23,109 bases of DNA from NCBI GenBank assembly GCA_964525635.1, contig CAZGJX010000038.1:1-23109 (forward strand). Reading direction: 5' to 3'. The notes under the pieces were generated by a model. It was not told the origin of the DNA and searched no databases. It was given only the letters and a program-made list of their open reading frames with translations. This DNA is from an uncultured archaeon (GTDB lineage: Archaea; Asgardarchaeota; Lokiarchaeia; Sigyniarchaeales; SOKP01). Positions 4,054 to 5,023 of this stretch are shown here, one piece after another (the first letter of the stretch is position 1; every line of letters starts with the position of its first letter). A program made the position numbers and the translations under genes.

Positions 4054-4356
4054 TTAATCCTTTTTTAAAATGAGATTATTGATAGGAATATCTTGAAATT
4101 CTTCATTTGGCATTTCTCTTCTTATAGTTAATGGAAGAATTTTAGACTTAAGTTCTAATTGGGCAATTCTTATTGGATCTATCATAGTTTTTGGCTTGTC
4201 GACTAGAATAGGTGCCCCAAAACTAATTTGAAGCGCTCGAGCGCCAACAATTCTTGCTTTTTCGTATCTTGTTAAGAATATAGGCCCAATCTTTACATAT
4301 TCTCTAACTTCTTTATATTGTTTTCTTAATTCACGAGATTCTAAAAAACTGGACAC
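4054..4356 (-). CDS. rpoK: DNA-directed RNA polymerase subunit Rpo6/K (RPB6 homolog)
   Basis: [30 protein letters not shown]...LPLTIRR. GTG start preceded by AGGT. Confidence 0.96.
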
Positions 4357-4496
4357 TGTTAATTATACCTAGAAAGAGTAATTATATTATGAAATATTGC
4401 ATTTCATTTAATTTTTATGATTTCATAAAAAAAACACATTTTTTTTGTAGATGATATTTAATTACAATTAAAATAAGTTCTTTAAGAATAAAAAGA

Positions 4497-4662
4497 TGCG
4501 CGGAGAGGGATTTTCAAAAAATTTCGAAAAGATATTTTTATTCGAACCCCCGACCTTCGAGACAATGATTTTTAAATGATTGTATACACGGTGTGAGCGT
4601 TTAACGTTTTACAATGCATTCGCATGTAATAAGTCGTTATAACCGGGCTAAACTATCCGCGC
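4497..4662 (-). tRNA. tRNA-Val(CAC) with three introns (4601-4632, 4556-4584, 4511-4540)
   Basis: Removing 32+29+30 nt gives a 75-nt cloverleaf: GCGCGGA TA GTTT AGCCCGGTTA TAAC G ACACG CTCACAC CGTGT AGGTC GGGGG TTCGAAT CCCTC TCCGCGC A. Acceptor stem 7/7, anticodon stem 5/5, anticodon CAC at 4595-4593, discriminator A, CCA not encoded. Each intron junction folds as a bulge-helix-bulge or a relaxed form of it. Confidence 0.92.
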
Positions 4663-4744
4663 ATATTATTATTAAATAGGAATTACTGATTTGAATTAAA
4701 GTTTTACTTTTATTTTTGTTATATAACAATTTTCAACATGATTC

Positions 4745-5023
4745 ATGAAAAAAAAAGGATTAATTGTTGAAAAAATTATAATAGGTATGAGTCAAACTAA
4801 AATCATTAAAGGAGTTATTTTAAGCCTAATAATTTCCCTAATAGGTATTTTAATTATCTTTCTTTACGACATATACATCATATATGCCTTAATTGAGGGG
4901 AATACTGTGGATAATTTTGATGATTTTAAAAATTTTATACCTTGTAATGTATTTGGAATTATTTTAATTTTAATTGGTTTTTTGGGATTAATTAGATATG
5001 TTCTTCAAACCAATAATAAATGA
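4745..5023 (+). CDS. Small membrane protein, two predicted TM helices (alternative start ATG 4787)
   Basis: Two long hydrophobic stretches (GVILSLIISLIGILIIFLY..., VFGIILILIGFLGLI). Fills the intergenic space without overlap. Confidence 0.6.
   Translation: MKKKGLIVEKIIIGMSQTKIIKGVILSLIISLIGILIIFLYDIYIIYALIEGNTVDNFDDFKNFIPCNVFGIILILIGFLGLIRYVLQTNNK

What the first reader, a model, noticed from the sequence alone, without database searches (positions are those of the whole stretch)
4497..4662. Triple-intron tRNA-Val(CAC), all introns at non-canonical positions (28/29, 44/45, 59/60)
Seen in sequence (minus strand). Intron A (32 nt, 4632-4601): central helix AACG/CGTT, bulges AC^T and AA^A, inner stem TTACA/TGTAA, no exon-side outer helix (relaxed motif). 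Intron B (29 nt, 4584-4556): central helix CGTG/CTCG with one T-T mismatch, bulges TA^T and AA^G, inner stem ACAAT/ATTGT, outer AC/GT. Intron C (30 nt, 4540-4511): strict BHB with TTCG/TGAA, bulges AA^T twice, inner AAAAAT/ATTTTT, and the T-stem as outer helix. Cutting after the second nucleotide of each bulge gives a clean 75-nt cloverleaf. Introns make up 91 of 166 nt, and none is at the canonical 37/38 site. The central helices of introns A and B use D-stem and anticodon-stem strands, so the precursor cannot be a cloverleaf until spliced. Established knowledge: multi-intron tRNAs are best known from Thermoproteales and need a broad-specificity splicing endonuclease. Standard tRNA scanners may miss or mis-call this gene.
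Basis: partly seen in the sequence, partly recalled or inferred. Interest (0 to 1): 0.75.

Follow-up and report, generated by a model that had tools for sequence, protein, structure and literature searches.

The report
Hidden three-intron valine tRNA gene
This is a real valine tRNA gene of a Loki-type Asgard archaeon, cut into four pieces by three small protein-spliced introns that hide it from standard tRNA finders; such genes are already published, so it is a well-supported new example rather than a new kind of thing.

Summary
On the minus strand (4662-4497), removing 4632-4601, 4584-4556 and 4540-4511 gives a 75-nt tRNA-Val(CAC) that ARAGORN accepts. ARAGORN and Rfam both miss the unspliced gene. 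Ten related genomes carry an intronless Val(CAC) gene that matches the predicted product across all three junctions. Same-genus genomes keep all three introns: 72/75 exon bases are identical, the introns have diverged, and there are compensatory changes in exon-intron helices. A conserved BRE/TATA-like block lies upstream. The genome encodes a catalytic EndA alpha subunit with the specificity-loop lysine, a non-catalytic beta subunit and RtcB. This is the only Val(CAC) gene found.

It is not unusual here. About 91% of the host-type tRNA genes I recovered have introns, and four have three. Earlier follow-ups in this scan had already reported the Leu(UAA) and Ile(UAU) genes. Three-intron tRNAs are published for Thermoproteales and for Asgard archaea. 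Across 52 genomes of the family, Val(CAC) carries 0-3 introns at five sites, so turnover is fast. Verdict: real, new member of a known kind, modest interest.

The parts
4497..4662 (-). Whole tRNA-Val(CAC) gene (166 nt precursor body; no CCA encoded)
   Evidence: Spliced product accepted by ARAGORN; single de novo solution; orthologues in 52 genomes
4633..4662 (-). Exon 1, tRNA positions 1-28 (acceptor 5' strand, D-arm, start of anticodon stem)
4601..4632 (-). Intron A, 32 nt, at 28/29. Relaxed HBh' motif: central helix formed by nt 23-26 (AACG) with intronic CGTT, and no outer helix
   Evidence: compensatory changes GACG/CGTC (G016) and AACA/TGTT (G015)
4585..4600 (-). Exon 2, positions 29-44 (rest of anticodon arm with anticodon CAC)
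4556..4584 (-). Intron B, 29 nt, at 44/45. BHB with central helix nt 39-42 (CGTG) / CTCG containing one U.U mismatch, a 2-bp outer helix and a 5-bp inner helix
   Evidence: Hb is CACG, fully paired, in 4 of the 7 aligned orthologues
4541..4555 (-). Exon 3, positions 45-59 (variable loop, T-stem 5' strand, most of T-loop)
4511..4540 (-). Intron C, 30 nt, at 59/60. Strict hBHBh': TTCG/TGAA central helix, AA^T bulges, 6-bp inner helix, T-stem as outer helix
   Evidence: 59/60 is the commonest intron site in this genome, 11 genes
4497..4510 (-). Exon 4, positions 60-73 (T-stem 3' strand, acceptor 3' strand, discriminator A73)
4689..4707 (-). Putative archaeal promoter. A BRE-like GTAAAAC (4707-4701) plus a TATA-like TTTAATTC (4700-4693), 31-38 nt upstream of the mature 5' end, conserved in the four genomes of the genus while the surrounding spacer has diverged
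   Evidence: alignment A2; the function is inferred
4487..4496 (-). T-rich stretch (TCTTTTTATT) directly after A73, a likely transcription stop
   Evidence: inferred

Best explanation
A functional, single-copy tRNA-Val(CAC) gene of a Promethearchaeota (Lokiarchaeia-type Asgard) archaeon, interrupted by three short BHB introns at 28/29, 44/45 and 59/60. Inferred pathway: (1) Transcription starts from a BRE/TATA promoter about 8-10 nt upstream and gives a precursor of roughly 180 nt. (2) The acceptor stem and T-stem form, and each intron folds into its own hairpin, with a 4-bp helix between exon bases (23-26, 39-42, 54-57) and the 3' end of the intron. The three motifs do not overlap and can coexist, but they block the D-stem and the anticodon stem. 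(3) The (alpha-beta)2 splicing endonuclease, whose alpha subunit carries the specificity-loop lysine, cuts after the second base of each 3-nt bulge. (4) RtcB joins the four exons. (5) The cloverleaf then forms, the ends are trimmed and CCA is added. Shown here: the sequence anatomy, the exact junctions (from intronless orthologues), conservation with compensatory changes, and the presence of the enzymes. Inferred: transcription, cleavage, ligation and their order.
For: Splicing gives a clean 75-nt Val(CAC) cloverleaf. My search finds a unique solution, and the reversed-genome null gives none. Intronless Val(CAC) genes in 10 related genomes (for example L010, L024) are collinear with the predicted product across all three junctions. 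One of them, 72/75 identical to the product, scores 63.1 bits on Rfam tRNA. Same-genus genomes keep the three introns; exons are 72/75 identical while introns are only 17-26 of 29-33 identical. In the stated structure 98.1% of cells pair, against 33-54% in the slid controls, and 5 pairs change on both sides, including one exon-intron pair of intron A. There are further compensatory variants AACA/TGTT and TTCA/TGAA/TGGA. The upstream promoter-like block is conserved. EndA alpha has Y143/H151/K182 and K60 aligned to A. pernix K44 (PMC5829648). The beta subunit has Phe and Ser at the Tyr and His sites. RtcB is present. No other Val(CAC) gene turned up with ARAGORN, Rfam, my census or an anticodon-arm scan.
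Against: There is no RNA evidence. Folding energies are unremarkable: whole-precursor z = -1.6; single modules z = -1.6, +0.5 and -0.5. Intron A lacks an outer helix, and intron B has a U.U mismatch in the central helix, so both need a tolerant enzyme. tRNA-Val(UAC) might read GUG, so the gene may not be strictly essential. tRNAscan-SE and SPLITS could not be run.
Confidence: 0.93

Rival explanations
1. A decaying or silent tRNA pseudogene: the inserts are not removed, or not all of them, and GUG is read by tRNA-Val(UAC).
For: Relaxed motifs at introns A and B. No expression data. Two other Val isoacceptor genes and an intron-less Val(UAC) in the extra tRNA array exist.
Against: Exons are under much stronger constraint than introns within the genus. 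The exon-intron helices keep pairing through compensatory changes. The promoter block is conserved. The cloverleaf is perfect apart from U13.U22, which the orthologues share. It is the only CAC gene in a genome estimated 100% complete.
Confidence: 0.04
2. A real gene, but with a different exon-intron structure: other junctions, a different number of introns, or an obligatory splicing order with nested motifs.
For: Junctions B and C are degenerate by 1-3 nt at the sequence level. In the other genera the T-loop intron sits at 58/59, not 59/60.
Against: All the degenerate positions give the same mature RNA. My search returns only one solution. Intronless orthologues fix the product.
Confidence: 0.02
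3. A chance resemblance in AT-rich intergenic DNA.
For: None beyond the weak folding z-scores.
Against: The reversed-genome control gives no ARAGORN-positive solution. Orthologues occur in 52 genomes.
Confidence: 0.01

Closest known systems
[quoted passage not shown] 2024, PMC11291895; Goswami et al. 2026 preprint, 10.64898/2026.10.13.758758)
   Same: Same phylum. Short BHB introns mostly at non-canonical sites, many genes with 2-3 introns (up to five reported). Standard annotation misses them. Repeated gain is inferred.
   Different: This genome belongs to a Lokiarchaeia-type (Promethearchaeota) family that the text I read of those papers does not name. The Atabeyarchaeia-1 Val(CAC) is listed with 2 introns and marked 'possible pseudo'. 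Here the gene has 3 introns, with comparative support for every junction.
Multiple-intron tRNAs of Thermoproteales (Pyrobaculum, Thermofilum; Sugahara 2007/2008, cited in PMC4033280; PMC8450103: 'up to three')
   Same: Up to three BHB introns per gene at non-canonical positions, relaxed motifs, and dependence on an (alpha-beta)2 EndA with the Crenarchaea-specific loop.
   Different: A different phylum, a mesophile-like AT-rich genome, and introns of very uniform length (~30 nt). I found no similar intron copies elsewhere in the genome, whereas Thermoproteales show intron transposition between tRNAs.
Other three-intron tRNA genes of the same genome: Leu(UAA) C94, Ile(UAU) C50, Val(UAC) C22
   Same: Same architecture and the same preferred 59/60 or 44/45 sites. 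Leu(UAA) and Ile(UAU) were already reported in this scan (e1-5621276, e1-5621006).
   Different: The 28/29 site is used only by Val(CAC) in my census.
[quoted passage not shown]
   Same: Three ectopic introns, one per arm region, in one tRNA gene.
   Different: A eukaryotic nuclear gene and a eukaryotic Sen complex; there is no relation by descent.

Membership tests
Archaeal BHB (EndA-spliced) tRNA introns | [quoted passage not shown] | tested here: met
   Intron C is a strict hBHBh'. Intron A has a 4/4 central helix but no outer helix (HBh'). Intron B has 3/4 central pairs plus 2-bp outer and 5-bp inner helices.
Archaeal BHB (EndA-spliced) tRNA introns | Removal restores a canonical tRNA | tested here: met
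   The 75-nt product is called tRNA-Val(CAC) by ARAGORN. It is collinear with intronless orthologues, one of which scores 63.1 bits on RF00005.
Archaeal BHB (EndA-spliced) tRNA introns | The host encodes a splicing endonuclease able to cut relaxed motifs, and an RtcB ligase | tested here: met
   The alpha subunit (202 aa) has PF01974+PF02778, best PDB match A. pernix 3P1Z_B at E=4e-37, Y143/H151/K182, and K60 aligned to loop K44. The beta subunit (204 aa) lacks Tyr and His. RtcB matches at E=3e-166. The substrate range itself was not measured.
Archaeal BHB (EndA-spliced) tRNA introns | Actual excision and exon ligation in RNA | not testable with these tools
   No transcript data are available.
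tRNA-Val(CAC) | Cloverleaf with anticodon CAC, discriminator A73, U8, G18G19, U33 and a T-loop of the form UUCRAnn | tested here: met
   drawing; the search required these features. U13.U22 is the only stem mismatch, and the orthologues share it.
Split or permuted tRNA genes | Exons at separate loci or in rearranged order | tested here: not met
   The four exons are collinear on one strand within 166 nt.
Group I / group II self-splicing introns | A ribozyme core of hundreds of nucleotides | tested here: not met
   The inserts are 29-32 nt, and no Rfam family matches in the window.

The most novel reading that the evidence does not exclude
Two genera that are not sisters on an RtcB tree (the window's genus, and part of a second genus) occupy 28/29 and 44/45 and both interrupt the T-loop, at 59/60 in the first and at 58/59 in the second. 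Their nearest relatives carry intronless or one-intron alleles, and at least 25 gain/loss events are needed among 47 genomes. If much of this reflects recurrent insertion into the same BHB-competent sites rather than precise loss, the Val(CAC) locus of this family would be a natural time series. It could be used to work out how BHB introns enter genes, a mechanism that is still unknown.
Probability: 0.25. Interest if true: 0.55.

Novelty: new member of a known kind. Interest (0 to 1): 0.3.

Why it matters
For annotation: this is the genome's only tRNA for the CAC anticodon, and ARAGORN and the Rfam tRNA model do not see it. A pipeline relying on tools like these would report the genome as lacking it. 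For biology: it adds a Lokiarchaeia-type family to the Asgard lineages with heavily interrupted tRNA genes. My incomplete census gives about 1.5 introns per recovered host-type gene. It also gives a well-resolved case of exon-intron co-variation. Within one family the locus shows every state from 0 to 3 introns, which is useful material for studying intron gain and loss. It does not change what is known about the splicing mechanism.

Tried and rejected
- ARAGORN with introns allowed, and Rfam at gathering threshold and at E<=1 over the whole genome, do not find the gene.
- My first census script timed out, and the second was too slow on long spans. I restricted introns to 75 nt or less and spans to 380 nt or less, so longer introns and genes with introns in the acceptor stem are missed. 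About a dozen expected anticodons remain unrecovered.
- My first position labels were off by one downstream of position 44. This was corrected.
- Thermodynamics did not discriminate.
- BLAST of the three introns against the genome found only low-complexity matches, so there is no sign of recent copying between genes.
- An anticodon-arm scan gave one GC-rich hit, which turned out to be the 3' end of 16S rRNA.
- The tRNA in locus L008, whose T-loop intron resembles intron C, could not be resolved.
- Interior similarity of introns between genera is only suggestive for intron A (p=0.0015 against G016). It is absent for the T-loop intron, so gain versus loss stays open.
- Two divergent RtcB copies used as outgroups fell inside the tree and were dropped.

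Full report
OBSERVATION. Joining 4662-4633, 4600-4585, 4555-4541 and 4510-4497 gives a 75-nt sequence. ARAGORN draws it as tRNA-Val(CAC) with a 7-bp acceptor stem, A73, a 5-bp anticodon stem and a 5-bp T-stem. The only stem mismatch is U13.U22. ARAGORN (introns allowed) and the Rfam library find nothing in the unspliced window. A whole-genome Rfam tRNA search at E<=1 also misses this locus. The gene lies in a 388-nt gap between ORFs 4054-4356 (-) and 4745-5023 (+). Exons are 60% G+C and the introns 28, 24 and 13%, in a genome of 26.8% G+C.

IS IT MORE THAN CHANCE? I wrote an independent finder. It lists all GC-rich 7-bp acceptor pairs followed by U8, with C61 in place. It then lists bulge-helix-bulge (BHB) candidates of strict geometry and enumerates cloverleaves with up to four introns.
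In standard numbering the junctions are 28/29, 44/45 and 59/60.
- Over the whole genome it gives 53 solutions, of which ARAGORN accepts 50 after splicing.
- On the reversed genome it gives 4 solutions, all at or below 48% G+C, and ARAGORN accepts none.

ANATOMY OF THE MOTIFS.
- Intron A: exon bases 23-26 (AACG) pair 4/4 with intronic CGTT. The bulges are AC^U and AA^A. A long inner hairpin follows and there is no outer helix, so this is an HBh' motif.
- Intron B: bases 39-42 (CGUG) pair with CUCG except for one U.U. The bulges are UA^U and AA^G, the inner helix is 5 bp and the outer helix 2 bp (37-38 with 46-47).
- Intron C: bases 54-57 (UUCG) pair with UGAA (one G.U). Both bulges are AA^U, the inner helix is 6 bp and the T-stem is the outer helix, a strict hBHBh'.
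- The three motifs use separate bases and can coexist. A fold forced to contain them is -34.5 kcal/mol, against an unconstrained minimum of -38.1.
- Folding energies are not diagnostic (z = -1.6 for the precursor).
- Junctions B and C can slide by 1 and up to 3 nt without changing the product; the BHB rule fixes them.

COMPARATIVE EVIDENCE. The genome is a Promethearchaeota (Lokiarchaeia-type Asgard) MAG: the closest EndA loci are titled 'MAG: Promethearchaeota archaeon', which agrees with earlier notes of this scan. I resolved the Val(CAC) gene in 52 genomes of the family.
- Ten genomes have no intron. These genes are collinear with the predicted product across all three junctions. One of them (L024), 72/75 identical to the product, scores 63.1 bits on RF00005.
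- Eleven genomes have one intron, 23 have two and eight have three.
- The eight with three are the four genomes of the window's genus, three genomes of a second genus and one genome of a third. The second genus uses 28/29 and 44/45 with the T-loop intron at 58/59. The third uses 28/29 + 37/38 + T-loop.
- Within the genus, exons are 72/75 identical, whereas the introns are 25-26/33, 17-19/29 and 20-26/30 identical.
- The exon-intron helices keep pairing through changes on both sides. Intron A: AACG/CGTT becomes GACG/CGTC in G016 and AACA/TGTT in G015. Intron C: TTCG/TGAA becomes TTCA/TGAA and TTCA/TGGA. Intron B: Hb alternates between CTCG (U.U) and CACG (fully paired).
- On a seven-sequence alignment, 98.1% of cells of the stated structure pair, against 33-54% when partners are slid. 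Five pairs change on both sides.
- A block GTAAAA(C/G)TTTA(A/T)TTCAAAT lies 27-45 nt upstream and is conserved in the four genomes of the genus, in an otherwise diverged spacer. It looks like BRE+TATA. A T-run follows A73.

ENZYMES. Two PF01974/PF02778 proteins are encoded.
- The 202-aa protein is closest to the Aeropyrum pernix catalytic alpha subunit (3P1Z_B, E=4e-37). It has Tyr143, His151 and Lys182. Its K60 in GISKPR aligns with K44 of the Crenarchaea-specific loop. That loop lysine gives broad substrate specificity, and the loop is reported as conserved in Asgard (PMC5829648).
- The 204-aa protein has Phe and Ser at the Tyr and His positions, so it is a structural beta subunit.
- RtcB is present.
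- The subunit assembly and the substrate range are inferred, not measured.

CONTEXT IN THE GENOME. No second Val(CAC) gene exists by any method used. The extra arrays of mostly intron-less tRNAs on contigs C54 and C146 contain Val(UAC) only. Among the 34 host-type tRNA genes my incomplete census recovered, 31 have at least one intron, 15 have two or more, and four have three: Val(CAC), Val(UAC), Ile(UAU) and Leu(UAA). That is about 1.5 introns per gene. The commonest sites are 59/60 (11 genes) and 37/38 (10 genes); 28/29 is used only here. The introns have no similar copies elsewhere in the genome.

EVOLUTION. On an RtcB tree of 47 of these genomes (one marker, backbone poorly resolved), the window's genus is a 100/99 clade inside a 100/99 clade whose other members carry 0 or 1 intron. 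The minimum numbers of changes are 6 (28/29), 7 (44/45), 9 (T-loop) and 3 (37/38). Intron interiors are clearly homologous within the genus. Similarity to the second genus is suggestive for intron A only (p=0.0015) and absent for the T-loop intron, which there sits at 58/59. Gain and loss cannot be separated with these data.

WHAT IS KNOWN. Archaeal tRNA genes with up to three BHB introns are established for Thermoproteales (PMC4033280, PMC8450103). For Asgard archaea, 92-95% of tRNA genes of Atabeyarchaeia and Freyarchaeia have introns and many have three (PMC11291895 and its Supplementary Data 4). A 2026 preprint reports up to five intervening sequences per gene, 30% missed by tRNAscan-SE, and repeated gains (10.64898/2026.10.13.758758). 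This scan had already followed up the three-intron Leu(UAA) and Ile(UAU) genes of the same genome.

VERDICT. The finding is correct and well supported. It is a further member of a known kind, so I score interest at 0.3.

Noticed in passing
G000 contig C54:19098-20390 (-) and 25170-26273 (+); contig C146:5782-7574 (-) (outside the window): Arrays of about 27 tRNA genes, nearly all intron-less and U34-rich, that together cover all 20 amino acids. They form a second tRNA set beside the intron-rich host-type genes, and they have Val(UAC) but no Val(CAC).
   Followed up: partly
G000 C22:4304-4457 (+), C50:12594-12414 (-), C94:9058-9265 (+), C45:23745-23876 (+): Other multi-intron tRNA genes from my census: Val(UAC) with introns at 23/24, 33/34 and 44/45; Ile(UAU) at 22/23, 38/39 and 59/60; Leu(UAA) with three; Val(GAC) at 23/24 and 59/60. 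ARAGORN mis-calls or misses several of them when they are unspliced.
   Followed up: partly
RtcB loci of relatives G018, G052, G015, G143, G120, G129, G104: The RtcB match starts only at residue 73-86 of the query in these genomes although the gene is not at a contig end. The N-terminal part may be separated by an insert (a mini-intron or intein) or may be divergent.
   Followed up: no
L008 (G009:C9, around 2625-2676): A different, unresolved tRNA-like gene in another genus carries a T-loop insert 87% identical to the T-arm plus intron C region of the window's gene. This is a possible case of intron sharing between tRNA genes.
   Followed up: partly
Relatives of genus g2: G142, G109, G116 versus G016: A well-supported clade with a completely intronless Val(CAC) is sister to a genome with all three introns. 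This suggests loss of all introns at once, for example by replacement with a processed copy.
   Followed up: no
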